From Candidatus Latescibacterota bacterium (GTDB taxonomy: Bacteria; Latescibacterota; UBA2968; GCA-2709665): DNA of 64,000 nucleotides. A model generated the notes under the pieces. That model had not been told where the DNA came from, searched no databases, and saw only the letters and a program-made list of their open reading frames with translations. Of the stretch, positions 8,600-60,774 are shown piece after piece. Location of the stretch: positions 1,474,016 to 1,538,015 of the forward strand of contig CBDDDZ010000005.1 of NCBI GenBank assembly GCA_965226795.1, read 5' to 3'. How positions within the stretch are numbered: position 1 is the stretch's first letter; each line of letters starts with the position of its first letter. Both the position numbers and the translations under genes were made by a program.

Positions 8600-9112
8600 A
8601 TGGATCTGTCGAGATATATTCGGGAAGTACCTGATTTTCCGAGACCGGGCATCCTTTTCAAGGATATTACGACCCTTTTGAAGGAGCCCGCGGTACTCGA
8701 TGCCGCAGTTCGACAGCTTGCAGAACCGTACCGGAATGCGGGTGTATCGCTTGTGGCAGGGATCGAGTCCAGGGGGTTCATTCTGGGCGCGGCCGTAGCC
8801 CGCGATCTGGGCGCGGGATTCGTGCCCATTCGAAAATCCGGCAGGTTGCCCGCGGAAACGGCTTCGGCGAGTTACGCGCTGGAATACGGTACGGATAGCA
8901 TTGAAATTCATACCGACGCGATCGTCCCGGGTCAACGTGTGCTGCTCATAGACGATTTGCTGGCAACTGGAGGTACCATGGAAGCCGCGGTCAGCCTCGT
9001 GAAGGGACTTGGGGGTCGGATCCCGGGTATTGCATTTCTGATCGAATTGACCGCACTCGACGGACGCTCGAAATTGCAGGGTGAAAATGTTATGGCGCTG
9101 GTCTCCTATTAG
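8600..9112 (+). CDS. apt: Adenine phosphoribosyltransferase
   Basis: MDLSRYIREVPDFPRPGILFKDIT ... VLLIDDLLATGGT (PRPP-binding motif). The start is taken at the internal Met of track ORF 8588..9112. Confidence 0.9.
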   Translation: MDLSRYIREVPDFPRPGILFKDITTLLKEPAVLDAAVRQLAEPYRNAGVSLVAGIESRGFILGAAVARDLGAGFVPIRKSGRLPAETASASYALEYGTDSIEIHTDAIVPGQRVLLIDDLLATGGTMEAAVSLVKGLGGRIPGIAFLIELTALDGRSKLQGENVMALVSY

Positions 9113-9348
9113 GCGCCCGCCACGCGGTCCGGGTAGACGTCCGTTGCCTGTTCGAGTGGATAGTGTGAAGTTGTTCGAGAAAACCGATCGTGCGAGGACG
9201 CTTCGGTGTAATCAGGCTCGCGTGGACGTGGTCTTCGCAGTTTGGTTGGCGGTTGTCGAGTCCTCGGCCGCCGGTGTCCCGCCAGTGTTGGAAATACATC
9301 GTTCGAAACGGGCGGGATATTTGAAAGCGTCCACATCTCGAATCGATG

Positions 9349-9421
9349 CCCCTGTAGCTCAGTGGATAGAGTAGCGGATTCCTAATCCGTTGGTCGCAGG
9401 TTCGAGTCCTGCCAGGGGCAT
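9349..9421 (+). tRNA. tRNA-Arg (anticodon CCU)
   Basis: GCCCCTG-TA-GCTCAGTGGATAGAGT-A-GCGGA-TTCCTAA-TCCGT-TGGTC-GCAGGTTCGAGTCCTGC-CAGGGGC-A. Cloverleaf with 7-bp acceptor stem, anticodon loop uuCCUaa, T-loop TTCGAGT. CCA is not encoded. Confidence 0.85.
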
Positions 9422-9619
9422 TTAGTTCTTCCGGAAACGGGCGCGGCATCTGGCCGCACAGAAAATATCCCATGCGGTCAAGCCTCAAGGGAAGTTGCGT
9501 TTCCAGGCTTTCCCGGTTGACATTGTACTGATCGAGATCGCATCCGGTGTCGGTATCTGCATCGCGTTTCACGTTGCGACACCGGTGTTTCGCGTCGATC
9601 CGCGGTTGGCGCAAGCGTC

Positions 9620-10083
9620 TTGAATTCTCCTGGGCAGGCAGTTGTGGGATTTCAAATCAACGAAACATTGCTGTTGCGTTTTCCCCGGGAACAAGCCTTC
9701 CATTTCTTTTCCGAGGCCGGAAATCTGGGTCGACCCACGCCACCGTGGCTCCGGTTCTCGATAAGAAGTTCCCAGCCAATTGAAATGGCACAAGGGACGG
9801 TCATCAACTACAGGATCAGGATCCACGGTGTGCCCGTGAATTGGGAAAGCGAAATTGCCCTCTGGCGGCCGCCGTTTGAGTTCTGCGATGTCCAGCGCCG
9901 GGGACCTTGCCGTTTCTGGATCCATCGGCAAATTTTCGAAGAAACACTGGAGGCACCCTGGTGACTGACAAGGTCGATTACGCCGTCCACGGCGATAGGC
10001 TGGTGAGTCGTCTGTTCGTTGCGCGAGATTTGAGAAAAATCTTCGCCTGTCGAAGAGCAAATCCAATCGAACAGTTTCCCTGA
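9620..10083 (+). CDS. SRPBCC (Bet v1-like/polyketide-cyclase fold) family protein, interrupted by an apparent 1-nt indel near 9950
   Basis: ORF 9620..9964 (…FFSEAGNLGRPTPPWLRFSI…EETLEAPW*). An unlisted short frame 9961..10083 continues VTDKVDYAVHGDRLVSRLFVARDLRKIFACRRANPIEQFP. Extending the CCC run (about 9955..9957) to CCCC gives a continuous ...EAPLVTDKVDYAV... Confidence 0.55.
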
Positions 10084-10158
10084 CACACACGGATGCGCTT
10101 ACCGGCGGTGCCACCAGCCCGTGGCGAACGCCGTTATAAATGGGGAAGTCGAGAACGG

Positions 10159-11196
10159 ATGGTGCGAATTACGTCGGTCAGAGCAATCCAGCCGGAATCC
10201 GCCGGAAGTCCGAACGACTGGCGGACATGGATGGGTCAGATCGCGGTCAGCGTTGAGACGGAAGACGGGCTGACGGGCTATGGCGTCGGTGGTGGTGGCG
10301 CGGCGGGCATTCACGTTATAGAGACCGAATTGCGCCGGCTTCTTATAGGCAGCGACGCAACCCCGGTCGAAGACCTTTGGGTCGAAATGTATCGGGCAAC
10401 GCTGCCTTACGGGCGGAAGGGTATCGCGGTGATGGCGATCAGCGGCGTGGATCTGGCGTTGTGGGATCTGAGGGGAAAACGTGAAGGAAAGCCAATAGCC
10501 GTGGTTTTGGCCGGAAAAAACGCATACCATCCGAAAGCTGTTCACTGCTACATGACGGGATTCTCGGCCGAAGAGGTTATTCGTTCCGGCGCAAACGGGT
10601 TCCACGCGCTCAAGTTTCATGCGGGGCTGAACCGGAACCAGGACATCGCAGAGGTGGTTGTTCCGATTCGACGCGTGAGGGACACCCTCGGGCCTGATGT
10701 TCGTCTGATGGCAGACGCGGCGATGAAGCTGGACGCCGATACGGCGCTGCGCCTCGTCGACGCTTTGCAGGGATGTAATCTGGAATGGCTCGAGGAACCG
10801 CTGCCGCCAGAGGATCTGGAAGGATATGGGAAACTGCGCGACCAGAGCCCGATACCCATCGCAGGCGGGGAACATGAATACACGGCAGCCGCTTTCGACG
10901 TTCTGATGAGGGAGCGTCTGCACGCAATCGTACAGCCGGACGCGACCTGGTGTGGTGGACTTACGGAACTGGTGAAGATATACGCCATGGGCGAGAAATA
11001 CGGTGTTCGGGTGTGTCCCCATCGTGGAAGCGAAATCTGGGCGCTGCACGCGATTGCGTCAATAGATCCCGATCCACTGGCCGAATCGGGCCGACCGTGG
11101 ATCGACTGGGTGAACGGGCAACCTGAAATCGTAAATGGAAGTGTCACAAACGGAAGCGCGTCCGGCTTCGGGGTCGGGCTGCCCATCTCGCCGTGA
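10159..11196 (+). CDS. Enolase-superfamily enzyme (mandelate racemase/muconate-lactonizing family; sugar-acid dehydratase-like)
   Basis: MVRITSVRAI...GIAVMAISGVDLALWDLRGK...KLDAD...LEWLEEP...AGGEHEY... Metal-ligand pattern of the family. The start is taken at an internal Met of track ORF 10093..11196. Confidence 0.8.
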   Translation: MVRITSVRAIQPESAGSPNDWRTWMGQIAVSVETEDGLTGYGVGGGGAAGIHVIETELRRLLIGSDATPVEDLWVEMYRATLPYGRKGIAVMAISGVDLALWDLRGKREGKPIAVVLAGKNAYHPKAVHCYMTGFSAEEVIRSGANGFHALKFHAGLNRNQDIAEVVVPIRRVRDTLGPDVRLMADAAMKLDADTALRLVDALQGCNLEWLEEPLPPEDLEGYGKLRDQSPIPIAGGEHEYTAAAFDVLMRERLHAIVQPDATWCGGLTELVKIYAMGEKYGVRVCPHRGSEIWALHAIASIDPDPLAESGRPWIDWVNGQPEIVNGSVTNGSASGFGVGLPISP

Positions 11197-11419
11197 TGAG
11201 ATCACTGGATTTCCGGGGGCGTTTTCATTCAGTGCCTCCAGCGAATTCTTGCAACGGCGCTTGGGCGGGAATCAGGGCGGGTCTTGTTTCGAGCCTGGAT
11301 TGGCGCGGCAGCCAAACGTACGGCGGTCCCGGTTCCGCGAGAATAGGGAGACCGTGAGGGGTTAATTGCGATACATACAGACCTGTCGCAGACGCATTCC
11401 GGTCGGGGTGGCATAGGGG

Positions 11420-11448
11420 TTGACATCAGATCTGGAATACCATACTAT
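11420..11448 (+). promoter_or_regulatory. Candidate sigma-70 promoter: TTGACA, 17-nt spacer, TACTAT
   Basis: Read directly from the sequence. It lies about 135 nt upstream of the small ORF at 11584, which has a GGGAGG SD. Confidence 0.4.
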
Positions 11449-11583
11449 TTGGTGGATTGTCGCCCTTCACTGCACCCGCGGCTCCTGCGTTCGGATCGGC
11501 ATCTGCGGACGGAGCTGGTTTGATTCGCAATCCGAACGCCCTGTGCGCGTCTCCCCCGGATGTTATGAGAAATCGGGAGGAGT

Positions 11584-11934
11584 ATGATGTCCCCTGAACA
11601 TGAAAAATATCTCGAAGACGATCGGATAATGGCGAATCTCGTAGATCCGGTTGATGCCGAAGCGTTTACAAACTTAATGGAATACGCCCACCAGAGGGCC
11701 ATGAGCGCCGCGGATTTTATACGTGAAGTGCCTGAACGCACCTCACGAAAGGCGATTCGGAGGCTGTGCCTGAAAGACAGGAAGCGAACGTTGCGTGCGA
11801 GAATGTCCTCCTTCGCCAAGAACTTATGGGCTCGCCCCGCTGTGGATCCGGAGACCACCCATATTCAGTCACTCTACCCACCCCGCGACCGGCCACAGAT
11901 TCCGGGCGGGAACGGACAGAAACCCAAACGATGA
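11584..11934 (+). CDS. Hypothetical small protein (116 aa)
   Basis: Strong SD (GGGAGG, 7 nt upstream), candidate promoter upstream, ATGA stop/start overlap with the next small ORF. The C-terminal half is low-complexity, so the true extent is uncertain. Confidence 0.35.
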   Translation: MMSPEHEKYLEDDRIMANLVDPVDAEAFTNLMEYAHQRAMSAADFIREVPERTSRKAIRRLCLKDRKRTLRARMSSFAKNLWARPAVDPETTHIQSLYPPRDRPQIPGGNGQKPKR

Positions 11935-12113
11935 TGCAGGAAAACCGACAGGCGTTACAGGTGCACATTCACGAACTGGAAGAACTGGTCGAGGCGATGC
12001 TTGTACATGCGCGATCCGGAAACCAGGAGGCCAGGGAGCGGCTGGTTCACGTGCATCGAGAGGTGATGAATAAACGGCATCGTCTCAAAGACCTGTACAG
12101 GCAGGATGGCTGA
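11931..12113 (+). CDS. Hypothetical small helical protein (60 aa, MMQENRQALQVHIHELEELVEAML...)
   Basis: In-frame tail of track ORF 11766..12113. Its start overlaps the stop of the preceding ORF (ATGATG), suggesting translational coupling. Confidence 0.3.
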   Translation: MMQENRQALQVHIHELEELVEAMLVHARSGNQEARERLVHVHREVMNKRHRLKDLYRQDG

Positions 12114-12199
12114 AGGGTCGGACCTAAAGAGCGAAATATGTCGGGCAAGTTCCGAGACGCTTACCGGAGTTGTGCCGCATATTTCGCCTTTTTTGATTC

Positions 12200-12634
12200 A
12201 TGCGGACTGAGATGCGAATTCTTGCGGTAGACTATGGCCGCCGCCGCGTGGGCCTGGCCGTTTCCGACGAACTGGGTTTGGCCGGACGGGGGTTACCGAC
12301 GATTCAGGCGGGCTCACAAAGCTCAGCGGTAGATTCCGTGGCACAGGTGGCCTCGGACGTTGGGGCAGCCGCACTACTCGTCGGCCTGCCGCTCAATATG
12401 GATGGTAGCCGTGGGCCGATGGCTGAAGCGGCCGAAGCATTCGCTACCGCATTGAATCGAACAACGGGGCTGCCTGTTCGTCTGTGGGATGAACGACTGA
12501 CCACCGTTGCCGCGCGACGTGCGATAAGGGAAATTGGGGCCAGGGATCGAAAAACAAAGGGCCTTGTGGATCGGATGGCGGCGGTTTTGCTTCTGAATAA
12601 CTATCTGCTGGCGCAGGATTCGGCGGAACCGTGA
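12200..12634 (+). CDS. ruvX: Holliday junction resolvase-like nuclease RuvX/YqgF
   Basis: ILAVDYGRRRVGLAVSD ... GLPLNMDGS ... ERLTTVAARR. YqgF/RuvX signature. Confidence 0.85.
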   Translation: MRTEMRILAVDYGRRRVGLAVSDELGLAGRGLPTIQAGSQSSAVDSVAQVASDVGAAALLVGLPLNMDGSRGPMAEAAEAFATALNRTTGLPVRLWDERLTTVAARRAIREIGARDRKTKGLVDRMAAVLLLNNYLLAQDSAEP

Positions 12635-22635: not shown

Positions 22636-23457
22636 TTACACGCCGGATTGAACGGCGCTGATTTCGTCCTTTGAGATTTTGTGTACACTCTTGGGATTGA
22701 AGGTCTGCCGTGTGCCCGACCGGAGCGCAACTTCGATTCTTCCTCCTGTCAGGACGAAAAACTGGAGTAGGAACCCTCCGCCCTGCATCGACTCGACCTG
22801 ATATTCCTCTGGGTCCATCCCGTCAACCCATCCAGGAAAATGCGCCCTGAAACGGGCATCCGCGAACACGTTTTGCGGCAGCGCCATAACCAGCGTTCCA
22901 GGCAGTTCGTTCAGGGCCTCACCGATGGTCCTTCGTATCCCGGCCAGGTAGGGGATCACCTTCCCCGCATAATCGAAGTCGTCCTCAACGCCACGCTCAG
23001 GCGGAACAATACCCCACGTCATATGGTGTATAAACGGATTGCCGTGACCCTGGGCGAGCATGTGGTCCCGGGCCGCTTCATCCACGGGATGGACGACTGC
23101 GACGTAGTCGAACCAGCCCTTTTCTCGAGCGGGACTGTCCTCGGGCAGCCCGGAGGGGACATTAATGTAGTCGTACCCGTCCACCGGCGACGGATAGCAC
23201 CGGGTGTCCCACCCGGCGACGTACCCGATGCGTTTCAAACGGCCGGCCAGAAGATGCGGGGGGTCGACAAAAATGGCGGCATGGTCCGGATTCGGCAACA
23301 GCGGTACGGCGGCGTCAGAGATCTTACGTGCAACATCGAGCGCTTCCCACAGCCGTTCGGGTGCGTTGGAAATGTCGAGTTGCTCATTGAAATCGTCCGG
23401 CAGGATAACGTTCCCGGGCATCTTTCTCTCCTCCACGGAAAGGACGATTGAAATCAA
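22636..23457 (-). CDS. Hypothetical protein (273 aa, acidic, no recognisable motif)
   Basis: Long ORF with protein-like composition on the minus strand. Function unknown. Confidence 0.5.
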   Translation of the reverse strand: MISIVLSVEERKMPGNVILPDDFNEQLDISNAPERLWEALDVARKISDAAVPLLPNPDHAAIFVDPPHLLAGRLKRIGYVAGWDTRCYPSPVDGYDYINVPSGLPEDSPAREKGWFDYVAVVHPVDEAARDHMLAQGHGNPFIHHMTWGIVPPERGVEDDFDYAGKVIPYLAGIRRTIGEALNELPGTLVMALPQNVFADARFRAHFPGWVDGMDPEEYQVESMQGGGFLLQFFVLTGGRIEVALRSGTRQTFNPKSVHKISKDEISAVQSGV

Positions 23458-23706
23458 TCACAAGGTTTGAATTGACAAAAAGATCAAGCAGCCGGCCCCG
23501 CCCACTAAGGCGCCAACCTTTCACATGTAAAATTGCGAACCGCGTTCGCGGTGTCAAGCGGAATTCGGTTCGGGGAGATGGTTAGAGAACGATACATCGG
23601 AACGTCGGCGGGATTGAAGGCGCAGCTGGAGGAAAACGAAATCGATCGACGTTTCAATCGCAAGAAGACCGTAAATGCATCAGACAAGATTGGACATTCC
23701 CCAAAT

Positions 23707-23735
23707 CCCGACTGTGAATCGGTCGGGATTTTTTC
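23707..23735 (+). terminator. Rho-independent terminator-like hairpin (CCCGAC-tgtgaatcg-GTCGGG plus ATTTTTT)
   Basis: Perfect 6-bp GC-rich stem followed by a T-run on the plus strand. No convincing plus-strand CDS lies upstream. Confidence 0.4.
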
Positions 23736-23916
23736 GTGTCACATCGACCGCAAGCGGTTTTCAAATTCGAAAACCATTCTGAAAGCTGTATTCATTCCCT
23801 GGCAAATCAGGTCATTAGCGCCTAAAACACAAACCTTTAATAAAAATACACTTATGTTTAACATCTTCAATTGGCATACGGATTGCGTGGCCTGTTTGAC
23901 GCGATGGCGCTTGTAA

Positions 23917-26103
23917 ATGGAGAGATATGTGAAACAGACCCTCTTGATCTTTATAGTATTCCTGTTCCTGGATCAGAACGCGTTGTGGGCCCAGGCGATC
24001 GCCACGCCCGACACGCTCCACTTCGGTCCGGTGCGCACAGGGACTTCAGTTCTGGATAGTATCAGTGTCGTGAACAGAGGGGAGGCCAACGTAGTCCTGA
24101 GTTCCTGGGTTGTCGACGGAACCGCCTTCCAGCTACGGGGCGACCCCTTTTCCGACGCAGACGTCGTACTGCCGCCGGAGCAGGCCATGAACCTGCGGAT
24201 CCGTTTTGAACCCCAGGATCTGGTTGTCTATTCCATGGATCTTATCGTCGAGACCAACAGCGGGGATGTGAGCATACACCTCTCGGGCGAAGGCGTTCGC
24301 GAAGTTGTGGTCATTCAGGAGATCCTCGCCGACCCGCCCTCGGACTTGGAAGGCGACGCCAATGCAGACGGCGTGCGCCACCGCTATCAGGACGAGTTCG
24401 TGGAACTGCTCAATATCGGATTCAGGCCCGTCGAGTTGGACGGATGGCAGTTGAGCGATGCGGGCACCGCGCCTCAGGCGAGGTTCACGTTTCCGGAAAA
24501 CACCCTGTTGGAACCCGGCGAACGTGCGGTTCTGTTTGGCGGTGGTTCTCCCGCAGGTTTTTCAGGACCCGTGTTCGTGGACGACGGAACGATCGGAGGG
24601 GGTCTGAATAACCGGGGTGACGCGGTTTTCCTGATCGACCCGACGGTGCCGGATACCCTGGCGACCGCTGCCTACGGCACCGCGGCGGACAAGAACCAAT
24701 CGCTGGTGCGCCACCCGCAAGGCCGGGGACCATTCGAACTCCATAGTCTGTTTCCCGGTAACGGCGCGCTGTTTTCACCGGGCCGGGCGCGTACGGTCAT
24801 ACAGCGAATCGATGTCGTGCCCGCGGATACCACCGTGGAACTGGGCGCTGTGATCCGGTTCGAAGCACAGGCTGTATTCAACGATGGGAGCGAATCCACG
24901 ATAGACGGCGGGGTGGCCTGGCATTCGACTGATGATGCGATTGTCAGTCTTTTGGACGACACCGGGACGGCGGTGGGCGTAGGTACCGTAGAGATAACCG
25001 CTAAAGTGTTGGGCGAAACGTCCATACCCGGTACCGTTGTGGTCGTGCCCCCCTTCTTGTCGGACTTGAGGGTTGCGCCCTCGGACACACTGCTGGTGGT
25101 GGGTGATGCGCTCGAGTACCGGGTGAACGGTTTAAACGGTGAGGGCGTCGAGGAGCCGGTCAGGTCCGGGCTGGTATGGCAGAGCTCGGATTCCACGGTC
25201 GCACTCCCTAAGGGGGGTAATGTGATGTTGGCCACGGGATCGGGAAATGCCTCAGTGGTCGTTCATCTGGACTCCATGTCGGGTACGGCTACGTTCCGGG
25301 CTGGTGACCGTGGAGACCCGAATGCAGATGGCGAATTCGATTTGCTGGATGCGCTCCTTACCGTCTATCTCATCCTGGACATGCGGACCGACGCCGGACC
25401 GTATGAGCGTAGCGCTGCGGATTTGAATCAGGATGGGCTTGTGGATATTCTGGATCTGGCTCTGTTGATTCGCAAAATACTGGGGGTTCCGGCTGGTGGG
25501 GCGAAACCCGCATTGGCCGGTGCTGCCGCGTGGCAGTGGGACGGTGAATGCCTGAATATCCGGGCCACGTCCGGACTTTCGGTGATTCTGATTGCATTTG
25601 ACGGTCACGTCGCGAGCGTGAAACCGCCCGTCGGAACGAAAGCGGTCGTTTCACATGCGCACCCGGGTCAAACACGCGTACTAGTCTTTCCAGTTTCGGC
25701 GGACGGGCTGGATGGCGGTAACACGGGCCTCCGGCTGGTCACCCGGGGTGAGGCCGGAAGGGTGGCCGAAGTGAGGGCCGCGGATATGTGGGGCCGACCG
25801 GTCGTGTTCAACTCCGAAGGGACGCAAAGGTTTGGATTGGAACAGAATTACCCCAATCCGTTCAACGCCTCCACAATGCTGGTCTACAGTTTACAGCGCG
25901 GGGATTATGCACAGTTGCGAATTTTCTCGACGCTGGGACAGGAAATCGCACGGCCGATCGACGGTCCGGTCGCGGCGGGCACCCACCGAGTTGTCTGGGA
26001 CGGCCGCGATGCGGAGGGGCGGCCAGCTGGGAGTGGTGTCTACCTTGGACATCTGGTGGCCGGTAAACAGCGATCCGTGATAAAGATGGTGCTGTTGAGA
26101 TAA
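23917..26103 (+). CDS. Secreted T9SS cargo protein: signal peptide, choice-of-anchor-D/ASH-like beta domain, lamin-tail domain (LTD), 2x Big_2 Ig-like domains, dockerin (two Ca-binding repeats) and a T9SS C-terminal sorting domain
   Basis: LTD: EILADPPSDLEGDANADGVRHRYQDEFVELLN...WQLSD...PGERAVLFGGG...NRGDAVFL. Dockerin: GDPNADGEFDLLDALLTVYLIL...ADLNQDGLVDILDLALLIRKILG. T9SS CTD: NYPNPFNASTMLVYSL...VWDGRDAEGRPAGSGVYLGHL...KMVLLR. Confidence 0.8.
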   Translation: MERYVKQTLLIFIVFLFLDQNALWAQAIATPDTLHFGPVRTGTSVLDSISVVNRGEANVVLSSWVVDGTAFQLRGDPFSDADVVLPPEQAMNLRIRFEPQDLVVYSMDLIVETNSGDVSIHLSGEGVREVVVIQEILADPPSDLEGDANADGVRHRYQDEFVELLNIGFRPVELDGWQLSDAGTAPQARFTFPENTLLEPGERAVLFGGGSPAGFSGPVFVDDGTIGGGLNNRGDAVFLIDPTVPDTLATAAYGTAADKNQSLVRHPQGRGPFELHSLFPGNGALFSPGRARTVIQRIDVVPADTTVELGAVIRFEAQAVFNDGSESTIDGGVAWHSTDDAIVSLLDDTGTAVGVGTVEITAKVLGETSIPGTVVVVPPFLSDLRVAPSDTLLVVGDALEYRVNGLNGEGVEEPVRSGLVWQSSDSTVALPKGGNVMLATGSGNASVVVHLDSMSGTATFRAGDRGDPNADGEFDLLDALLTVYLILDMRTDAGPYERSAADLNQDGLVDILDLALLIRKILGVPAGGAKPALAGAAAWQWDGECLNIRATSGLSVILIAFDGHVASVKPPVGTKAVVSHAHPGQTRVLVFPVSADGLDGGNTGLRLVTRGEAGRVAEVRAADMWGRPVVFNSEGTQRFGLEQNYPNPFNASTMLVYSLQRGDYAQLRIFSTLGQEIARPIDGPVAAGTHRVVWDGRDAEGRPAGSGVYLGHLVAGKQRSVIKMVLLR

Positions 26104-26213
26104 ATCCGTTGGGTCGAAGACAACAGCCGCTGTTCACCCGTCATCGGCAAACATAGGCTCTCCACCCCGTGCGGGCTGGTGCGTCCATCATCGAATATTG
26201 AAGGTATCCCAGC

Positions 26214-29200
26214 ATGCGTCGCTATATACACACATTGGCAATCCTGCTGTCTCTGGACCCGCCGCCGGCGGGTCACTGCACGCCAGCCGACACACTCTGG
26301 GTAAAGGGAGCAACCGTTCTGGCCACAGATACCGTGGGTGTTGAGGTGGTCCTTAAGAATGCACGGCCGATAGCGGGCACCACCTGGACCCTGGGATATG
26401 ATTCTTCGTCCATGGCGGTGGTCGGAGTCGATAAGACGGAGCGGACCGCAGGCATGGAGATCTATATGCACGCTGCAGGCGATTCGGTAAAAGCTCTAAT
26501 CCTGAACCCGTCTACGGGACAGGCGATTCCGCCGGGCGAGGGAGCCGTAGCCCTCTTGCGGATGGCGATTCGCGAATCCATCCCCGACGGCATCTACCCG
26601 CTGACGTTCCGTATGGTGGATCTGGTGAATACCGCGCAGCCCCCAGAGCGACTTGCAGCAGTCGGGCTGGGCGGACAGGTTCGGGTTACGTCCCAGCTTT
26701 TTTCCGTCGGGGCAACCAGCGGGTCCCCCGGTGACACCGTTTCCGTACCCCTCAAATTGCGAAACAGGGCTGTAGTGGCGGGCATTCAGGTTGAACTGAA
26801 CTGGCCTCAAGACGCGCTGAGCTTCGTGGAGGTGTTGCCCGCCGATCGAATTGCCCAATGGGATCTGTGGGCGGTTGCCAGAAACGGGAATGGCGCCATG
26901 GTTCTCGCGGCCGACCTGGATGGTACGGAGCGGATACCGCCTGGTGACGGCACGTTAGCCCTGTTGAATCTGGCCATCCCCGTCTTCTCCAACAGTAGCG
27001 CAGTGCCCATCTCTATCGAAAGCGTGAGATTGGCGAATCCGGAGGGAACGGCCCTGCCCTCCGCCTCGGAAAGCGGGGAGATCGCCATCCTGTCGAACTT
27101 GAATAGATCCCCTCAACTGGCTCTTCCAGAATATATTACCACGCCCGAAGATTCTACATTTCTGTGGCGCGCACCGGCCTTTGACCCAGACGGAGACCAA
27201 CTTGAATTCGAAGCCGAAAACCTTCCGGAATGGCTATCGCTCGACGCCGCTTCCGGGAAATTCAGCGGCAGACCCGAAGACAGGGATGTTGGCGTTTATA
27301 TAGTCAGTCTCCTGGTTTCCGACGGTCGAATCAGTGTTCCGGACTCGATGCGACTTGAAGTCACCAATCTTCCGCCTCAGATTATCGGCACGCCCGAACG
27401 TACGGCCCGCGTGGGCGCCGAATACCGTTATGCGCCGGAGGTGCGAAACCTCGATGGCGGGTATGTTCGTATTGAGGCAGACGTTCTGGGCATTCTATGG
27501 GACGCTCAGACCGGCCTCGTTATCTGGCAGCCCGAAAAACCGGGCGAATTTCGCTTGCGATTGATCGCGGTGGATCCGAATGGCGGAGAAGCCGTACAGT
27601 CATTCGATGTAACCGTAGCAGCAGGCGCCAAGGTGGTGATCGATGAGGTGTTGGCGGATCCGGCTACAGGTCCAAACGGTGATGCCAACCGGGACGGGGT
27701 TAGAGACAGCAAGTCAGACGAGTTTGTTGAAATATGGAATGTTGATTCGAAGCCGGTGACGATAGGCGGATGGTGGCTAAGCGACGACGACGTCGGGTCA
27801 AGCGGGCGATTTCATTTTCCGGACGGCACGGTACTTGAACCGGGAACCCGCGCGGTGCTGTTTGGCGGTGGCGAGCCAAGAGATATTCCCGGGCGCGTAT
27901 TTGTGGACGACGGCAGTATCGGTAATGGATTGACCAATAAGGGGGATCTGGTCTTGCTTGTCGATCCGGTTTCTGAAGATACGATGGCAGTTGCCGACTT
28001 CCGGGTAAAGGGCGACCTGAACCGATCCGTGGTGAGGCTGGCCGAAGGCATTTACGTTCCACATCCCGATTTACCGGACGGTGGGGTCATATCCCCAGGC
28101 CGGCCGCATCCGAACCCCGCGGACCCGGAGGAAACGGCGAAACCACCACGGCCGGTATTTCTGGATGCCCCCCCATCGTGGTGCCGGGTTGGCGCGCTTT
28201 GTCGGTTCGTGCCCAGAATTCGCAATCTGGACGGTGGGTTCGTGCGTCTTGAAACCCGTGTACTTGGTGTCGTGTGGGACCGTTCCACGGGCGAGATTTT
28301 ATGGAGGCCCGATAAGGAAGGGCGTTTTCGTTTCTGGCAAACCGCGGTAAGTGGCGCGGGCGAGACGACCGTCAGGCAGTTTGATGTATGGGTTGAGCCC
28401 CGTCCGAAAATTGCAATTGTCGAAATTCTGGCAGACCCTCCGCCCGGCGTATACGGAGACGTAAATGGAGATGGAACGCGAGATAGTCAGGCGGACGAAT
28501 TTGTCGAGATCTTGAATGAAGGACCGGATGCAGTCTGGCTTACGGACTGGCGGCTGAGCGACGATGATGTATCGGACCGCCGGCAGTTTCGGTTTCCCAA
28601 TCTGACGCGCCTCCAGCCGGGAGAACGAGCCGTGTTGTTCGGAGGGGGACGTCCCGTGGGGGTCGAGGGCCAGGTGTTTGTGGATGACGGCAGCATCGGC
28701 AACGGGTTGACCAACAAGGCCGATGTGATTCTGTTGATCGACCCCGTCCTGAACGACACGCTTGGCCGCGCTTCTTATCATGTGGAGTCGGATATCGACC
28801 AGTCTCTGGTGTGGGACGGCACGGGCTGGATTCCGCATGAGACCCCACCGGGCCGAGGAGTTTTTTCGCCTGGACTACCGCGGGAGATGGGTACCGTCAT
28901 AACGGAAAACGCAGATGACAAACAAGACGGGGGAACGGACGGTGGGGTAGGACCGAATGAAGCGGAAAGAAACGCCCGATACCCGTCAGGGTCCGTTCCA
29001 TCAGGCGTAATTATCAATGAGATCCTGGCCAATCCCACCCATGGTGCAAACGGCGATGCCAACGGAGACGGCGAACGCCATGGATATCAGGACGAATTCC
29101 TCGAACTCAAGAACACAGGACCCGATACAGCTTACCTGGACGGATGCAGGCTAGGAGATGACGATGTGCCGCTGGACCGTCTGTTCGGATTTCCAACCGG

Positions 29201-31094
29201 CACGGTGCTTCCGCCAGGCCGTTTTGTGGTCCTGTTCGGTGGCGGCTCTACGACGGATTTCCCCGGAACAGCGTTTGTGGATGATGGCCGGATAGGCGAT
29301 GGGCTCTCGAATTCGGGCGACACTGTGGTTTTCCTGTCACCCGATGGCGCAGATACGCTCGATGTCGCCACCTTTGACAAGGCACCGGAAGGGGCCTCTC
29401 TGGTCCGCCGCGAGGATTCCACGCTGCAAAGGCATGATCGTCTGCCATTCATCGGGTGGTTCTCACCCGGACGCGCGGCACCGAAGCTGGTCGCGATCCG
29501 CATCGTTCCCGACACGTTGATCCTGGAAACTGGAACCAGCCGCGCCGTCGCCGCACAGGGTATTTTCAATTCGGATCTTGTATCCGATGTCACGGACAAC
29601 CTGAATTGGACCGTTGAAGACTCCTCGGTTGCGAAACTTGAAACGGGGATGCGGCTACGGGGCGTAGCGCCGGGCGAGACGGCGGTGCACGCGTGGTTCG
29701 GGCGTCTCACGTCAAACGCCGTCGTCAGGATACTTTCGAAGACGACGAACGAAAGTGCCGATTCGAGCAGTGGAATCGACGACAACACGGGCAGTGCGAA
29801 TCCCTCATCCAACCTTCCGCCGGTAATCCTCACGCGCCCCGACACGCTGGCCATCACGGGTCTCAGGTACTTGTACCGGCCGAAGGCCGAGGATCCCGAA
29901 GGTGATCCTGTGGTTTTTTTGGCGCCGCAGAGACCAGCCTGGCTTCAATGGACGGAAACCGATTTGGAGGGTTTACCGGAAAACACTGGTTTCTGGCCGG
30001 TTGTCATCGCGGCGACGGACGGCAGGGACACGACGGAACAGGCGTTCACCATCCGCGTCGTAAGACCCGGCGTTCTTCCCGCGAGCCGACCGGACAGCGT
30101 TGCCTACGTTGGTGTAACGTGGCGGATGTATCTGGATATCAGCGACGGAATTCAGACCCAGATAGACGGTGGACCTGTTCTCGAAGCCTCGGGCGAAACC
30201 CTGATGTGGCGCCCGCAGACGGGCGACGAAGGCCAACGGTTGATCACGGTTTCCATGAGTGGAAACGGTGTCGAAAGCCTGATCTTGACATTCAGGATCA
30301 CGGTCTGGCCTCGACCGCTGATCCGCGTCGATGAGATTCTGGTCGATCCGACCGCGGATGTAAACGGAGATGGAAATCTCGACCCATACGGAGACCAATT
30401 CATCGAATTGCTCAATGCCGCCGCTCACGGGGTGGATCTGGCCGGCTGGACGCTCGGTGACGACGACGGGGAACCGTTTACATTCCCTCGAGGTACGATT
30501 TTGAAAGGTGGAGATCGATTGACCCTGTTCGGTGGTGGGCCGCACACGCGTGGGAATGGCCGGTTTTCCGCCGCCGGCAGGATCGGGAACGGGCTGGCTG
30601 CCTCAGATCGGATCCTATTAATCGCACCGGGCGGACCGGACACGCTGGTCGATGTGCAATACGCCAACGGACAGGTTGGCGCGTCTTTGGTGCCCGACCC
30701 GGAAAAACCGGGGGATTGGCTGCCTCACAACCAGGTTTCGAATCTGCCGTTTTCGCCGGGAATGGCGACACCTGTAGCGGATACCGCATTACCTGACTCC
30801 TTGGAAAACTCTGCGAATGATCTTGAAGGCTATCCGGTTCACCCGTTTCCAAACCCATTCAATTTGCACACGACCATCGGGTTTCGAAGCACCGGCGATC
30901 CGGCGGAATTTACGGTTTACAACATTCTCGGACAACCCGTACGCCGGTTTTCGGTTACAACGGGTGCGGGTTTTCATCAATTGGTGTGGGACGGACGCGA
31001 CAATCTGGGGCGATCGGTGGGAACGGGCGTATATCTCATTCGTATTCGAATCGGATTTCGCGTCCGCACGATGCGAGTGGTTCTGGTAAGATGA
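26214..31094 (+). CDS. Giant (1626 aa) secreted T9SS cargo protein: two N-terminal cohesin-like modules, five repeats of [putative-Ig/cadherin-like + lamin-tail domain], a Big_2 domain and a T9SS C-terminal sorting domain
   Basis: Cohesin-like blocks (GATVLATDTVGVEVVLKNARPIAGTTWTLGYDSSSMAVVGVD.. and SPGDTVSVPLKLRNRAVVAGIQVELNWPQDALSFVEV..). Five LTD copies (E[VI]LADP..GD[AV]NGDG.RDS.[AS]DEFVE[IL].N..W.LSDDD..F.FP.GT.L.PG.RAVLFGGG..VFVDDG[SR]IGNGL[TS]N.[GA]D.V.L). T9SS CTD: PNPFNLHTTIGF...VWDGRDNLGRSVGTGVYLIRI...RVVLVR. Confidence 0.8.
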   Translation: MRRYIHTLAILLSLDPPPAGHCTPADTLWVKGATVLATDTVGVEVVLKNARPIAGTTWTLGYDSSSMAVVGVDKTERTAGMEIYMHAAGDSVKALILNPSTGQAIPPGEGAVALLRMAIRESIPDGIYPLTFRMVDLVNTAQPPERLAAVGLGGQVRVTSQLFSVGATSGSPGDTVSVPLKLRNRAVVAGIQVELNWPQDALSFVEVLPADRIAQWDLWAVARNGNGAMVLAADLDGTERIPPGDGTLALLNLAIPVFSNSSAVPISIESVRLANPEGTALPSASESGEIAILSNLNRSPQLALPEYITTPEDSTFLWRAPAFDPDGDQLEFEAENLPEWLSLDAASGKFSGRPEDRDVGVYIVSLLVSDGRISVPDSMRLEVTNLPPQIIGTPERTARVGAEYRYAPEVRNLDGGYVRIEADVLGILWDAQTGLVIWQPEKPGEFRLRLIAVDPNGGEAVQSFDVTVAAGAKVVIDEVLADPATGPNGDANRDGVRDSKSDEFVEIWNVDSKPVTIGGWWLSDDDVGSSGRFHFPDGTVLEPGTRAVLFGGGEPRDIPGRVFVDDGSIGNGLTNKGDLVLLVDPVSEDTMAVADFRVKGDLNRSVVRLAEGIYVPHPDLPDGGVISPGRPHPNPADPEETAKPPRPVFLDAPPSWCRVGALCRFVPRIRNLDGGFVRLETRVLGVVWDRSTGEILWRPDKEGRFRFWQTAVSGAGETTVRQFDVWVEPRPKIAIVEILADPPPGVYGDVNGDGTRDSQADEFVEILNEGPDAVWLTDWRLSDDDVSDRRQFRFPNLTRLQPGERAVLFGGGRPVGVEGQVFVDDGSIGNGLTNKADVILLIDPVLNDTLGRASYHVESDIDQSLVWDGTGWIPHETPPGRGVFSPGLPREMGTVITENADDKQDGGTDGGVGPNEAERNARYPSGSVPSGVIINEILANPTHGANGDANGDGERHGYQDEFLELKNTGPDTAYLDGCRLGDDDVPLDRLFGFPTGTVLPPGRFVVLFGGGSTTDFPGTAFVDDGRIGDGLSNSGDTVVFLSPDGADTLDVATFDKAPEGASLVRREDSTLQRHDRLPFIGWFSPGRAAPKLVAIRIVPDTLILETGTSRAVAAQGIFNSDLVSDVTDNLNWTVEDSSVAKLETGMRLRGVAPGETAVHAWFGRLTSNAVVRILSKTTNESADSSSGIDDNTGSANPSSNLPPVILTRPDTLAITGLRYLYRPKAEDPEGDPVVFLAPQRPAWLQWTETDLEGLPENTGFWPVVIAATDGRDTTEQAFTIRVVRPGVLPASRPDSVAYVGVTWRMYLDISDGIQTQIDGGPVLEASGETLMWRPQTGDEGQRLITVSMSGNGVESLILTFRITVWPRPLIRVDEILVDPTADVNGDGNLDPYGDQFIELLNAAAHGVDLAGWTLGDDDGEPFTFPRGTILKGGDRLTLFGGGPHTRGNGRFSAAGRIGNGLAASDRILLIAPGGPDTLVDVQYANGQVGASLVPDPEKPGDWLPHNQVSNLPFSPGMATPVADTALPDSLENSANDLEGYPVHPFPNPFNLHTTIGFRSTGDPAEFTVYNILGQPVRRFSVTTGAGFHQLVWDGRDNLGRSVGTGVYLIRIRIGFRVRTMRVVLVR

Positions 31095-31278: not shown

Positions 31279-31539
31279 ATGGCACAGCCCGAGATTACGT
31301 TCAGACACGGTTCCTGCAGCGCTTCCGTATTCGAGAACGAATATAACCGCGGCAAGGATAGTTTCAACGTCCGTACCGTTTCGTTTCAGAGAAGCTACCG
31401 GGACAAGCAAGGCGAGTGGCAGCGATCCAGCAGCCTGCGGGTGAACGATATCCCGAAGGCGATTCTGGTACTCAACAAGGCCTACGAGTACTTGACCTCC
31501 AACGGTCACGCCGAAGCCGAAGAAGAAACCGAAAGCTGA
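31279..31539 (+). CDS. Hypothetical small protein (86 aa)
   Basis: AAAGGGGG SD about 8 nt before the ATG at 31279, and its own terminator hairpin downstream. Beta-strand-rich sequence with an acidic tail. Confidence 0.5.
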   Translation: MAQPEITFRHGSCSASVFENEYNRGKDSFNVRTVSFQRSYRDKQGEWQRSSSLRVNDIPKAILVLNKAYEYLTSNGHAEAEEETES

Positions 31540-60703: not shown

Positions 60704-60774
60704 TTAATTGTGTAACAACGATATATATCCTTTTAGTGAGGTATATTTTGAATCGACGACGCTCTGAATTCTAT

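What the first reader, a model, noticed from the sequence alone, without database searches (positions are those of the whole stretch)
23917..31094. Adjacent cohesin-bearing and dockerin-bearing T9SS cargo proteins: a possible cell-surface cohesin-dockerin assembly outside the classical cellulosome
Protein 1 (23917..26103) carries a canonical dockerin with two Ca-binding repeats (DPNADGEFDLLDALL / DLNQDGLVDILDLALL) just upstream of its T9SS sorting domain. The immediately downstream 1626-aa protein begins with two cohesin-like modules. Both have type-A T9SS C-terminal sorting domains, so both would be exported and most likely anchored on the outer membrane. A cohesin/dockerin pair encoded side by side, on scaffolds made of lamin-tail domains rather than glycoside hydrolases or CBMs, suggests a non-cellulolytic surface complex (adhesin, eDNA or matrix binding). 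Non-cellulosomal cohesin/dockerin modules are known, but this pairing with the LTD and T9SS architecture is, to my knowledge, not characterised.
Basis: partly seen in the sequence, partly recalled or inferred. Interest (0 to 1): 0.75.

Follow-up and report, generated by a model that had tools for sequence, protein, structure and literature searches.

The report
Split surface protein joined by cohesin–dockerin
Two neighbouring genes of an uncultured Latescibacterota bacterium encode the halves of one large secreted surface protein, probably held together outside the cell by a cohesin–dockerin plug-and-socket, because close relatives carry the same two halves fused into one gene that lacks both plug and socket.

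Summary
P1 (23917/23929..26103) is signal peptide, Ig, LTD, 2 Big_2-like domains, type-I-like dockerin, β-sandwich and T9SS type-A CTD. P2 (26214..31094) is signal peptide, 2 cohesins, Ig domains, 4 LTDs and a CTD. Pfam and NCBIfam scores exceed curated cut-offs. AlphaFold2 models show a three-helix dockerin and two cohesin folds (TM 0.82–0.85 to solved cohesins). No catalytic or carbohydrate-binding module is present.

New evidence supports the pairing:
- The source is Candidatus Latescibacterota.
- In all 14 distinct genomes that have a dockerin-bearing P1 ortholog, a tandem-cohesin multi-LTD CTD gene lies immediately downstream.
- At the identical syntenic slot, at least six related genomes carry one fused gene, P1[1–~300] + P2[~460–end]. 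In the closest (L085, 84–86% nucleotide identity) a single frame-restoring indel removes window 24806–27586.
- Trees nest the fused forms within split forms at least twice.
- A σ54 −24/−12 promoter precedes the gene in 29 of 30 loci.

Most likely this is a σ54-regulated, T9SS-exported two-subunit LTD surface fibre or adhesin assembled by cohesin–dockerin. Binding and ligand are untested. It is a new variant of non-cellulosomal cohesin–dockerin use. In-silico analogues exist (Cloacimonadota, "planctosome").

The parts
23872..23887 (+). sigma-54 type -24/-12 promoter element TGGCATACGGATTGCG upstream of P1
   Evidence: The motif YGGYAY-N5-TYGCD lies upstream of the orthologous, fused or single-gene version in 29 of 30 loci. 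Background is 44 hits in 1.30 Mb counting both strands, of which 30 lie in these upstream regions (29 loci; L030 has two).
23917..26103 (+). P1: 728-aa ORF (probable true start GTG 23929, 724 aa). Dockerin-bearing distal subunit.
23917..23991 (+). P1 signal peptide (aa 1-25, ...ALWAQA)
   Evidence: Read from the sequence. N-terminal helix 2-23 in the AF2 model. No SignalP run.
23998..24297 (+). P1 Ig-like domain (HYDIN/ASH/choice-of-anchor-D-like), aa 28-127
   Evidence: Pfam PF22544 scores 28.4 bits when scanned alone. NF012200 is a weak hit.
24298..24792 (+). P1 lamin-tail domain (LTD), aa 128-292
   Evidence: Pfam LTD 66 bits. The best-conserved P1 module.
24796..25302 (+). P1 two Big_2-like Ig domains, aa 294-462
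   Evidence: Weak Pfam Big_2 / NUP210 Ig hits. All-β in the AF2 model.
25303..25491 (+). P1 dockerin (type-I-like, two Ca-binding F-hand repeats), aa 463-525
   Evidence: Pfam PF00404 32.6/38.8 bits. Conserved in 22 orthologs. Three helices with pLDDT about 87-91. PDB sequence hits to dockerins.
25513..25824 (+). P1 β-sandwich of unknown family between dockerin and CTD, aa 533-636
   Evidence: AF2 strands 535-633. No Pfam or NCBIfam hit.
25849..26100 (+). P1 T9SS type-A C-terminal sorting domain, aa 645-728
   Evidence: TIGR04183 24.3 bits against cut-off 23. The PNPFN motif is invariant in orthologs.
24806..27586 (+). Segment absent from the closest fused ortholog (L085/P0124): P1 aa ~297-728, the intergenic spacer and P2 aa 1-~458. 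It holds Big_2 x2, dockerin, β-sandwich, CTD, signal peptide, cohesin x2 and He_PIG x2.
   Evidence: blastn of L085 against the window gives two colinear blocks at 84-86% identity. They flank one indel whose net length, 2777 nt, is ≡ 2 mod 3 and exactly restores the reading frame.
26214..31094 (+). P2: 1626-aa cohesin-bearing multi-LTD stalk subunit
26214..26285 (+). P2 signal peptide (aa 1-24). Weak in the window but clearly a signal peptide in orthologs.
   Evidence: N-termini of 14 orthologs compared by eye. No SignalP run.
26286..26693 (+). P2 cohesin 1, aa 25-160
   Evidence: Pfam Cohesin 26.1 bits when scanned alone. AF2 β-sandwich 27-157 and Foldseek cohesin matches.
26694..27101 (+). 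P2 cohesin 2, aa 161-296
   Evidence: Pfam Cohesin 31.6 bits when scanned alone. phmmer hit to 6kg8 CaCohA2 at 2.5e-4. Foldseek match to 6kgc_A with TM 0.85.
27111..27611 (+). P2 two He_PIG-type Ig domains, aa 300-466
   Evidence: Pfam He_PIG 35.8 and 18.7 bits.
27612..28106 (+). P2 LTD 1, aa 467-631
   Evidence: Pfam LTD 55.5 bits.
28398..28883 (+). P2 LTD 2, aa 729-890
   Evidence: Pfam LTD 46.4 bits.
28986..29477 (+). P2 LTD 3, aa 925-1088
   Evidence: Pfam LTD 46.1 bits.
30309..30764 (+). P2 LTD 4, aa 1366-1517
   Evidence: Pfam LTD 44.6 bits.
30843..31091 (+). P2 T9SS type-A C-terminal sorting domain, aa 1544-1626
   Evidence: TIGR04183 31.1 bits against cut-off 23.
31279..31539 (+). Conserved 86-aa ORF of unknown function immediately downstream. 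A possible third operon member, with no signal peptide.
   Evidence: Present after the LTD gene in split, fused and single-gene loci. No Pfam, NCBIfam or PDB match.

Best explanation
P1 and P2 are the two subunits of one conserved, non-enzymatic cell-surface protein of Candidatus Latescibacterota.

Proposed mechanism, in order:
1. Both genes are transcribed from a σ54-dependent promoter upstream of P1.
2. Each product crosses the inner membrane by its own signal peptide and the outer membrane by the type IX secretion system, using its own C-terminal sorting domain.
3. P2 stays attached to the outer membrane through its C-terminus. It projects a stalk about 1,500 aa long, made of Ig and lamin-tail domains, with two cohesins at the distal N-terminal tip.
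4. P1 docks onto a P2 cohesin through its Ca-dependent type-I-like dockerin, which sits near its C-terminus after CTD removal. This places P1's N-terminal Ig+LTD head at the far end of the fibre.

The cohesin-dockerin contact therefore stands in for a peptide bond. Relatives in which a deletion fused the genes make the same colinear chain (P1 head + P2 stalk + one CTD) without dockerin or cohesins.

The assembled LTD array most likely acts as an adhesin or polymer-binding fibre. It is not a degradative enzyme complex.

Shown here: the domains, the folds, the conserved gene pairing, the fusions and the promoter motif.
Inferred: physical binding, T9SS export and anchoring, release of P1 from the membrane, and the ligand.
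For: Domains and folds:
- Profile hits for the domains exceed curated cut-offs.
- The models show a cohesin fold and a dockerin three-helix module. PDB sequence hits are to cohesins and dockerins.
- Dockerin Ca-ligand positions are conserved in 22 orthologs down to 35% identity.
- The dockerin is one of the best-conserved P1 modules, 40-62% identical where the spacer domains are 11-44%.

Pairing:
- All 14 distinct genomes with a dockerin-bearing P1 ortholog have a tandem-cohesin + multi-LTD + CTD gene directly downstream. Pfam confirms the cohesins in distant orthologs.

Fusions:
- L013, L015-L018 and L085 carry a single gene at the same slot, lptB-rpoN-up273-[X]-small86-SpoIIE-Aldedh-HU. It equals P1[2-~300/323] plus P2[~434/468-1626] at 62-83% identity and has no Pfam Cohesin or Dockerin.
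- At DNA level L085 is colinear with the window at 84-86% identity apart from one frame-restoring indel that removes 24806-27586.
- RpoN, up273 and small86 trees nest the fused clade within split genomes.
- In the P2-body tree the fused P0124 is sister to the window's P2 with 100% bootstrap, apart from the other fused clade. Junctions also differ (P1 aa 296, 300, 313, 323, 416-419). Together these imply at least 2 independent fusions.

Export and regulation:
- Each split half keeps its own signal peptide and CTD, whereas the fused form has one of each.
- The σ54 element occurs in 29 of 30 loci against a background of about 0.005-0.016 per 470 nt.
- No terminator-like hairpin lies between P1 and P2.
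- No catalytic domain is present in either protein.
Against: - No binding assay or co-fold was possible.
- P2 has two anciently diverged cohesins while P1 has one dockerin. A second partner, or 2:1 stoichiometry, is therefore unexplained.
- If P1 stays membrane-anchored through its own CTD, its dockerin sits near the membrane while P2's cohesins are about 1,500 aa from P2's anchor. That geometry suits in-trans or bent-back binding better than tip capping.
- No T9SS machinery gene lies in the 64-kb window. I found no paper reporting T9SS in Latescibacterota.
- The fusions also removed Big_2 and He_PIG spacers, so they show that the lost segment is dispensable once the halves are linked. They do not strictly show that dockerin binds cohesin.
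- The function of bacterial LTDs is unknown (PMC6085458).
Confidence: 0.68

Rival explanations
1. P2 is a true scaffoldin or anchor of a cellulosome-like degradative complex. Its two cohesins recruit several dockerin-bearing enzymes encoded elsewhere in the genome, and P1 is only one of many clients, or not a client at all.
For: - P2 has two divergent, separately conserved cohesins but P1 has only one dockerin.
- From memory, Farag et al. 2017 (AEM) reported dockerin-bearing glycoside hydrolases and cohesin scaffoldins in some Latescibacteria. PMC7081726 cites 'cellulosome-affiliated enzymes' in this phylum.
- Among the 44 nearest relatives of the cohesin pair, 7 carry dockerins and many carry T9SS-type tails. 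That pattern is compatible with larger networks.
- An in-silico precedent exists in Cloacimonadota.
Against: - There is no CBM or enzyme domain in P1 or P2, and no other dockerin or cohesin ORF in the window or in any 20-kb locus.
- P1-P2 adjacency is strict, 14 of 14 genomes.
- At least 2 lineages discarded both cohesins while keeping the P1 head and P2 stalk as one chain. That is hard to reconcile with a general enzyme scaffold.
Confidence: 0.14
2. The pair mediates cell-to-cell adhesion in trans. Distal cohesins of P2 on one cell bind the membrane-proximal dockerin of surface-anchored P1 on a neighbouring cell, giving Ca-dependent aggregation.
For: - Both proteins have T9SS type-A CTDs, which in Bacteroidota usually lead to covalent surface attachment (general knowledge, and the review text in PMC11285876).
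- The dockerin lies only about 120 aa from P1's CTD, whereas the cohesins lie at the far end of P2.
Against: Fused orthologs put the P1 head covalently at the tip of the P2 stalk and lose the coh-doc pair altogether. The essential feature therefore seems to be a single colinear fibre and not a trans-bridge.
Confidence: 0.1
3. The cohesin and dockerin modules no longer bind each other. They are structural spacers or bind unrelated ligands, and adjacency reflects only shared ancestry of two paralogous LTD surface proteins.
For: - Cohesins evolve about as fast as the spacer Ig domains.
- Pfam scores for the cohesins are modest.
- No interaction data exist.
Against: - Ca-ligand residues and helix positions of both dockerin repeats are invariant or nearly so over 22 orthologs.
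- Dockerin identity exceeds that of neighbouring domains.
- The dockerin always lies on the upstream protein and the cohesins on the downstream one, in 14 of 14 genomes.
- The fusion topology matches what docking would produce.
Confidence: 0.08

Closest known systems
Type I cohesin-dockerin pairs of clostridial cellulosomes (e.g. C. acetobutylicum CaCohA2-Doc0917, PDB 6kgc; C. cellulolyticum CipC, 1g1k/2vn5; C. thermocellum CipA, 1aoh/1ohz)
   Same: - Same Pfam families, above cut-off.
- Same cohesin β-sandwich fold (TM 0.82-0.85, rmsd about 2 Å).
- Dockerin with two Ca-binding F-hand repeats and three helices.
- Presumably Ca-dependent extracellular assembly.
   Different: - No cellulases, other enzymes or CBMs.
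- Only one dockerin protein and one two-cohesin protein, encoded side by side.
- Diderm host, with T9SS CTDs in place of SLH or sortase anchoring.
- Positions 10/11 of the dockerin repeats are hydrophobic (LL / IL), not the Ser-Thr pair of the C. thermocellum type I dockerin (the latter from memory).
- The pair links two halves of one structural protein. It does not load enzymes onto a scaffold.
Non-cellulosomal cohesin/dockerin modules (survey by Peer et al. 2009, cited in PMC8542988; Archaeoglobus fulgidus cohesin 2xdh; C. perfringens GH84C cohesin 2w1n; Ruminococcus bromii amylosome)
   Same: Cohesin and dockerin are used outside cellulose degradation. The P2 cohesin model matches 2xdh with TM 0.83.
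   Different: Those examples sit on enzymes, toxins or amylases, or are orphan modules. Here both partners are LTD/Ig scaffolds with T9SS tails, and natural fused orthologs show that the pair replaces a peptide bond.
Cellulosome-like complex proposed in silico for Cloacimonadota 'Ca. Stygibacter' (Williams et al. 2021, PMC8542988)
   Same: FCB-group bacterium. A cohesin-bearing scaffold with a T9SS-type CTD for surface attachment, with dockerin-bearing partners. Prediction only.
   Different: There the scaffoldin has many cohesins plus CBM2/CBM3, and the dockerins are on chitinase, amylase and peptidases. Here there are no enzymes or CBMs, a 1+2 module count, a strict gene pair, and LTD arrays.
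'Planctosome' hypothesis in freshwater Planctomycetes (Andrei et al. 2019, PMC6461901)
   Same: An LTD-containing large protein carrying a cohesin, partnered with dockerin proteins, proposed as a non-cellulosomal surface complex.
   Different: Different phylum with no T9SS CTDs. The LTD is proposed as the membrane tether, and the partners are peptidases attached through an adaptor. There is no evidence from gene fusion.
Large T9SS-exported surface adhesins of Bacteroidota (e.g. Flavobacterium johnsoniae SprB/RemA; from general knowledge)
   Same: Very long, repeat-rich, non-enzymatic surface proteins with a signal peptide and a C-terminal T9SS sorting domain.
   Different: Those are single chains without cohesin or dockerin, and their repeats are not LTDs. 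Their role in gliding motility is not implied here.

Membership tests
Cohesin domain (Pfam PF00963) | Profile-HMM score above the curated gathering cut-off | tested here: met
   48.0 bits for the whole protein in two stretches. The modules scanned alone give 26.1 and 31.6 bits against cut-off 24.1. Orthologs score 53.8-58.3 bits.
Cohesin domain (Pfam PF00963) | Flattened β-sandwich (jelly-roll) cohesin fold | tested here: met
   The AF2 model has pLDDT 78.9 from a shallow 5-sequence alignment. Foldseek top hits are cohesins: 6kgc_A TM 0.85 at 1.8 Å, 1g1k 0.82, 2xdh 0.83, 1aoh 0.81-0.83, and the 3l8q dyad at E 8.5e-12.
Cohesin domain (Pfam PF00963) | Binds a dockerin | not testable with these tools
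   There is no multimer prediction or assay. Only comparative-genomic support exists.
Dockerin type I (Pfam PF00404) | Profile-HMM score above the curated gathering cut-off | tested here: met
   32.6 bits in the whole protein and 38.8 bits alone, against cut-off 22.9, covering profile positions 2-57 of 57.
Dockerin type I (Pfam PF00404) | Two duplicated segments, each a 12-residue Ca-binding loop (D-x-[ND]-x-D-G-x5-D) followed by a helix | tested here: met
   D467-N469-D471-D478 and D502-N504-D506-D513 can be read in the sequence. D467, D478 and D513 are invariant and D502 and D506 are at least 90% conserved in 22 orthologs. Helices 476-486 and 511-522 flank a linker helix 495-501.
Dockerin type I (Pfam PF00404) | Ca-dependent binding to a cognate cohesin | not testable with these tools
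   Needs ITC or pull-down with and without EDTA, or a co-fold.
T9SS type-A cargo (TIGR04183 / Por_Secre_tail) | C-terminal sorting domain above the curated cut-off, plus an N-terminal signal peptide | tested here: met
   TIGR04183 scores 24.3 (P1) and 31.1 (P2) against cut-off 23. The PNPFN motif and C-terminal residues are conserved. Signal peptides were read by eye in P1 and in 14 P2 orthologs.
T9SS type-A cargo (TIGR04183 / Por_Secre_tail) | The genome encodes the T9SS machinery (SprA/Sov, PorV, PorU, GldK/L/M/N) | not tested
   None of these genes is in the 64-kb window, and the rest of the genome could not be fetched. The literature lists T9SS in several FCB phyla but does not name Latescibacterota (PMC11285876).
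Cellulosome / cellulosome-like degradative complex | Dockerins borne by glycoside hydrolases or other enzymes, and a scaffoldin with a CBM | tested here: not met
   No GH, peptidase or CBM family hit was found in P1, P2 or their segments at E ≤ 1. No other dockerin or cohesin ORF is present in the window or in the 20-kb loci.
Lamin-tail-domain proteins (Pfam PF00932) | LTD profile above the cut-off | tested here: met
   P1 scores 66.3 bits with 1 LTD. P2 scores 176.3 bits with 4 LTDs, each 44.6-55.5 bits alone against cut-off 34.3.
sigma-54-dependent operon | Conserved -24 GG / -12 GC element at the correct spacing upstream of the first gene | tested here: met
   TGGCAT-N5-TTGCG at 23872-23887. 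The motif is present in 29 of 30 orthologous upstream regions against a background of about 0.005-0.016 per 470 nt.
sigma-54-dependent operon | A cognate enhancer-binding protein (AAA+ Sigma54_activat) | not tested
   No such domain was found among the window proteins scanned. Not every ORF was scanned, and the rest of the genome is unavailable.

The most novel reading that the evidence does not exclude
Cohesin-dockerin here is an evolved 'post-secretion ligation' device for a T9SS surface fibre. The bacterium exports a very long LTD adhesin in two pieces and snaps them together outside the cell, and lineages switch repeatedly between the split and single-chain forms. The second, separately conserved cohesin would recruit a further, still unknown dockerin partner or a second P1. 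That would make the fibre tip exchangeable or allow Ca-dependent cell-cell bridging, a modular surface-display system native to an uncultured phylum.
Probability: 0.2. Interest if true: 0.8.

Novelty: new variant of a known kind. Interest (0 to 1): 0.6.

Why it matters
Cohesin-dockerin is best known as the glue of cellulosomes and is widely reused in synthetic biology. Here it appears as a natural connector between two halves of a conserved, non-enzymatic T9SS surface protein in an uncultured FCB phylum.

Nature has also provided the control. Sister lineages have replaced the connector with a peptide bond. That gives a clean, testable cohesin-dockerin specificity pair from a Gram-negative lineage. 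It also shows that cohesin modules are common on T9SS-type cargo (20 of 44 nearest relatives carry such tails). The locus is a phylum-wide, σ54-regulated LTD surface protein whose ligand could illuminate how Latescibacterota attach to particles or polymers, and what bacterial lamin-tail domains do.

Tried and rejected
- **Exact look-up of P1.** It failed because the public gene call starts 4 codons later. P0001 solved this.
- **The search for homologous proteins with P2 aa 1-310.** It returned nothing, probably a limitation of the word pre-filter. The cohesin orthologs were recovered from fetched loci with local phmmer/HMMs and from the exhaustive search.
- **Foldseek with the whole P1 model.** It gave only generic Ig-chain matches and says nothing about the dockerin.
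- **Covariation between dockerin and cohesin.** Not attempted, because 14 pairs are too few.
- **Literature searches.** Latescibacteria + cohesin/dockerin and Latescibacter* + T9SS found nothing. Youssef et al. 2015 contains no mention of either module. Farag et al. 2017 is not held.
- **Classical cellulosome.** Considered and rejected, because no enzyme or CBM is present.
- **Fused form as ancestral.** Considered and rejected, because fused genes nest inside split clades in four trees.
- **Single 5xLTD genes of L026-L036.** I considered whether these are also fusions. Their first LTD is 78% identical to the P1 LTD of the split sister L019, which is suggestive but unresolved.
- **small86 and up273.** No family or structure match was found.
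- **T9SS components and σ54 activator.** None was found among the window proteins scanned.


Full report
**1. Observation**

P1 is 728 aa, or 724 aa from the more likely GTG start at 23929. That start has a GGAGAG Shine-Dalgarno, and orthologs begin at the same place.
- Dockerin_1 covers aa 466-522 and scores 32.6 bits, or 38.8 bits scanned alone, against cut-off 22.9.
- One LTD scores 66 bits.
- An N-terminal HYDIN/ASH-type Ig domain is present, followed after the LTD by two weak Big_2-like domains.
- A T9SS type-A sorting domain scores 24.3 against cut-off 23 (TIGR04183).

P2 is 1626 aa.
- Two Cohesin stretches score 26.1 and 31.6 bits alone and 48 bits together, against cut-off 24.1.
- There are He_PIG Ig domains and four LTDs, each 44.6-55.5 bits.
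- The type-A sorting domain scores 31.1 against cut-off 23.

No enzyme or CBM family appears in either protein.

An AlphaFold2 model of P1 built on 22 orthologs has mean pLDDT 83.6. It shows the dockerin as three helices with pLDDT about 87-91. An unassigned β-sandwich (aa 535-633) and the CTD follow it.

A model of P2 aa 1-305 has pLDDT 78.9 from only 5 sequences. It gives two β-sandwiches whose best matches in the PDB are cohesins:
- CaCohA2, 6kgc_A, TM 0.85 at 1.8 Å
- CipC, 1g1k, TM 0.82
- the non-cellulosomal A. fulgidus cohesin, 2xdh, TM 0.83
- the ScaA cohesin dyad, 3l8q

Sequence searches of the PDB return cohesins and dockerins only.

**2. Source and family**

P1's nearly identical public copy lies on a 5.54-Mb ENA chromosome. 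The species-representative genome scan names the lineage as Candidatus Latescibacterota; a few MAGs are labelled Gemmatimonadota.

P1 belongs to a family of about 705-760 aa with the same architecture down to 35% identity. The Ca-ligand positions of both dockerin repeats are invariant or nearly invariant. The dockerin is among the best-conserved P1 modules.

**3. The pair is conserved**

I built local HMMs for the dockerin, cohesin, LTD and CTD and scanned stop-to-stop ORFs of all fetched loci. All 14 distinct genomes with a dockerin-bearing P1 ortholog have, directly downstream, a gene with two N-terminal cohesins, 3-7 LTDs and a CTD. Pfam confirms the cohesins in a distant ortholog.

The two cohesins are separately orthologous across genomes, so they diverged long ago.

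A variant occurs in L023/L024. There the P1-like protein carries a dockerin (local HMM only; Pfam Dockerin_1 not detected at E ≤ 0.01) and a Pfam-confirmed cohesin, and the next gene carries one cohesin.

P2 orthologs have ordinary signal peptides.

**4. Natural fusions**

The slot in question is lptB-rpoN-up273(−)-[X]-small86-SpoIIE-Aldedh-HU. At exactly this slot, L013, L015-L018 and L085 have a single gene of 1,461-1,532 aa. It equals P1[2-~300/323] (62-79% identity) joined to P2[~434/468-1626] (68-83% identity). It has five LTDs and one CTD, and no Pfam Cohesin or Dockerin. Three further fused proteins (P0125-P0127) have other junctions, with P1 ending at aa 296 or at aa 416-419.

At nucleotide level L085 is colinear with the window at 84-86% identity, apart from one indel. 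That indel removes window 24806-27586. Its net length of 2,777 nt is ≡ 2 mod 3, exactly the shift needed to bring P2's frame into P1's.

The lost segment holds Big_2 x2, dockerin, β-sandwich, CTD, the spacer, the signal peptide, cohesin x2 and He_PIG x2.

Neighbour-joining trees of three flanking proteins nest the fused genomes inside a clade of split genomes, with split outgroups. In a tree of the P2 body, the fused P0124 is sister to the window's own P2 (100% bootstrap) and lies apart from the other fused group.

Fusion is therefore derived and happened at least twice.

The fused chain has the same order (P1 head, then P2 stalk, then CTD) that docking P1's C-terminal dockerin onto P2's N-terminal cohesins would give. 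This is Rosetta-stone evidence that the two proteins work as one unit and that cohesin-dockerin stands in for a peptide bond.

It is also consistent that each split half has its own signal peptide and CTD, whereas the fused form has one of each.

**5. Regulation and context**

A σ54 −24/−12 element (TGGCAT-N5-TTGCG, 23872-23887) lies just upstream of P1. A loose search (≤2 mismatches to the consensus) gives no more window-wide matches than chance. However, the same motif with N5 spacing occurs upstream of the split, fused or single-gene version in 29 of 30 loci. The background is 44 hits in 1.3 Mb counting both strands, including those 30.

No terminator-like hairpin separates P1 and P2.

A conserved 86-aa ORF of unknown function always follows the LTD gene.

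The rest of the window is housekeeping and metabolism. It holds no T9SS machinery, no σ54 activator, and no other cohesin or dockerin.

**6. Mechanism**

The best-supported reading is a σ54-regulated, T9SS-exported, two-subunit LTD surface fibre. The P1 head is attached to the tip of the P2 stalk by a Ca-dependent cohesin-dockerin contact. The most probable role is adhesion or polymer binding, not catalysis.

The inferred steps are physical binding, T9SS export and anchoring, release of P1 after CTD cleavage, and the ligand. Bacterial LTD function is itself unknown (PMC6085458).

Rival readings:
- A general enzyme scaffoldin. The two cohesins make a second partner possible, but there are no enzymes or CBMs here, and both cohesins were discarded in the fused lineages.
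- Trans cell-cell adhesion. This fits the geometry if P1 stays anchored, but the fused forms argue for one fibre.
- Non-interacting relic modules. The conservation pattern argues against this.

**7. Comparison and novelty**

The modules are bona fide cohesin and dockerin, and the system is not a cellulosome.

Non-cellulosomal cohesin-dockerin is a known category. Two in-silico proposals come close:
- A T9SS-CTD cohesin scaffoldin with dockerin-bearing enzymes in Cloacimonadota (PMC8542988).
- An LTD+cohesin anchor in the planctomycete 'planctosome' (PMC6461901).

Dockerin and cohesin genes in Latescibacteria were reported in a cellulosome context. This rests on my memory of Farag et al. 2017, alluded to in PMC7081726. 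I found no paper on this LTD pair.

The exhaustive search shows that this cohesin type is rare: 299 representatives at E ≤ 1e-3 out of 1.84 billion, and 4 at E ≤ 1e-30. Among the 44 nearest relatives:
- 38 are Pfam Cohesin
- 20 carry FlgD_ig-type tails
- 10 carry Por_Secre_tail tails
- 9 carry LTDs
- 7 carry dockerins
- 3 carry SLH

Cohesins on T9SS-type cargo are therefore a wider, uncharacterised theme.

I classify the finding as a new variant of a known kind. Interest is moderate to high, because the split/fused series gives an unusually clean, testable case.

Noticed in passing
window 23872-23887 (+) and the upstream regions of 29 other loci: A conserved σ54 -24/-12 promoter element lies upstream of the LTD surface-protein gene across Latescibacterota. 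It is present whether the gene is split, fused or single. rpoN itself lies about 1.4 kb upstream.
   Followed up: yes
window 31279-31539 (+): An 86-aa ORF (MAQPEITFRHGSCSASVFENEY...) with a strong Shine-Dalgarno and no signal peptide. It has no Pfam, NCBIfam or PDB match. It is conserved directly downstream of the LTD gene in every locus type, so it may be a third operon member.
   Followed up: partly
window 22636-23457 (-): A 273-aa protein with no family match. It is conserved and divergently oriented between rpoN and P1 in nearly all related loci.
   Followed up: partly
window 23917 vs 23929: The longest-ORF ATG start of P1 is probably not used. GTG 23929, with GGAGAG at 23920-23925, matches the ortholog N-termini and the public 724-aa gene call. 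The 127-aa ORF 23533-23916 is not called in the public record and overlaps the promoter region, so it is likely spurious.
   Followed up: partly
L023 6595-9270 and 9419-12304; L024 1091-6892 and 8296-11379: A variant architecture in other Latescibacterota. One protein carries LTD, dockerin (detected by the local HMM only; Pfam Dockerin_1 found nothing at E ≤ 0.01), cohesin and CTD. The next gene carries one cohesin, two LTDs and a CTD. This arrangement could allow chain-like assemblies.
   Followed up: partly
L026-L036 (about 8850-12300 in each): At the same syntenic slot these genomes hold a single 5xLTD+CTD protein without cohesin or dockerin. Its first LTD is 78% identical to the P1 LTD of the split sister lineage L019. 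This may be a further, older fusion.
   Followed up: partly
L005/L025 (12090-18524) and L008 (11126-17611): The P2 ortholog is interrupted by an IS (DDE_Tnp_1) in L005 and spread over three frames in L008. The cause is either pseudogenisation or long-read indel errors.
   Followed up: no
L040, L044, L047-L083 (e.g. L053 3733-20247): Acidobacteriota (Pyrinomonadaceae/Blastocatellia) MAGs encode giant LTD-repeat proteins up to at least 5,505 aa with 10 or more LTDs. None has a T9SS CTD, cohesin or dockerin.
   Followed up: no
window 56426-61827 (+): An ABC ATPase gene is followed by a 1,128-aa protein that combines an ABC-2 permease-like region, an M1-peptidase-like stretch and a Golvesin_C domain. 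An HlyD-family gene comes next. This is an unusual exporter cluster.
   Followed up: no
P1 aa 139-166 (window about 24331-24414) and each P2 LTD: The LTDs share an invariant DP...GD-x-N-x-DG...DEF-x-E..N segment that is unstructured in the model. It looks like a Ca-binding loop, so the LTD array may also be Ca-dependent. This is inference from the alignment only.
   Followed up: no
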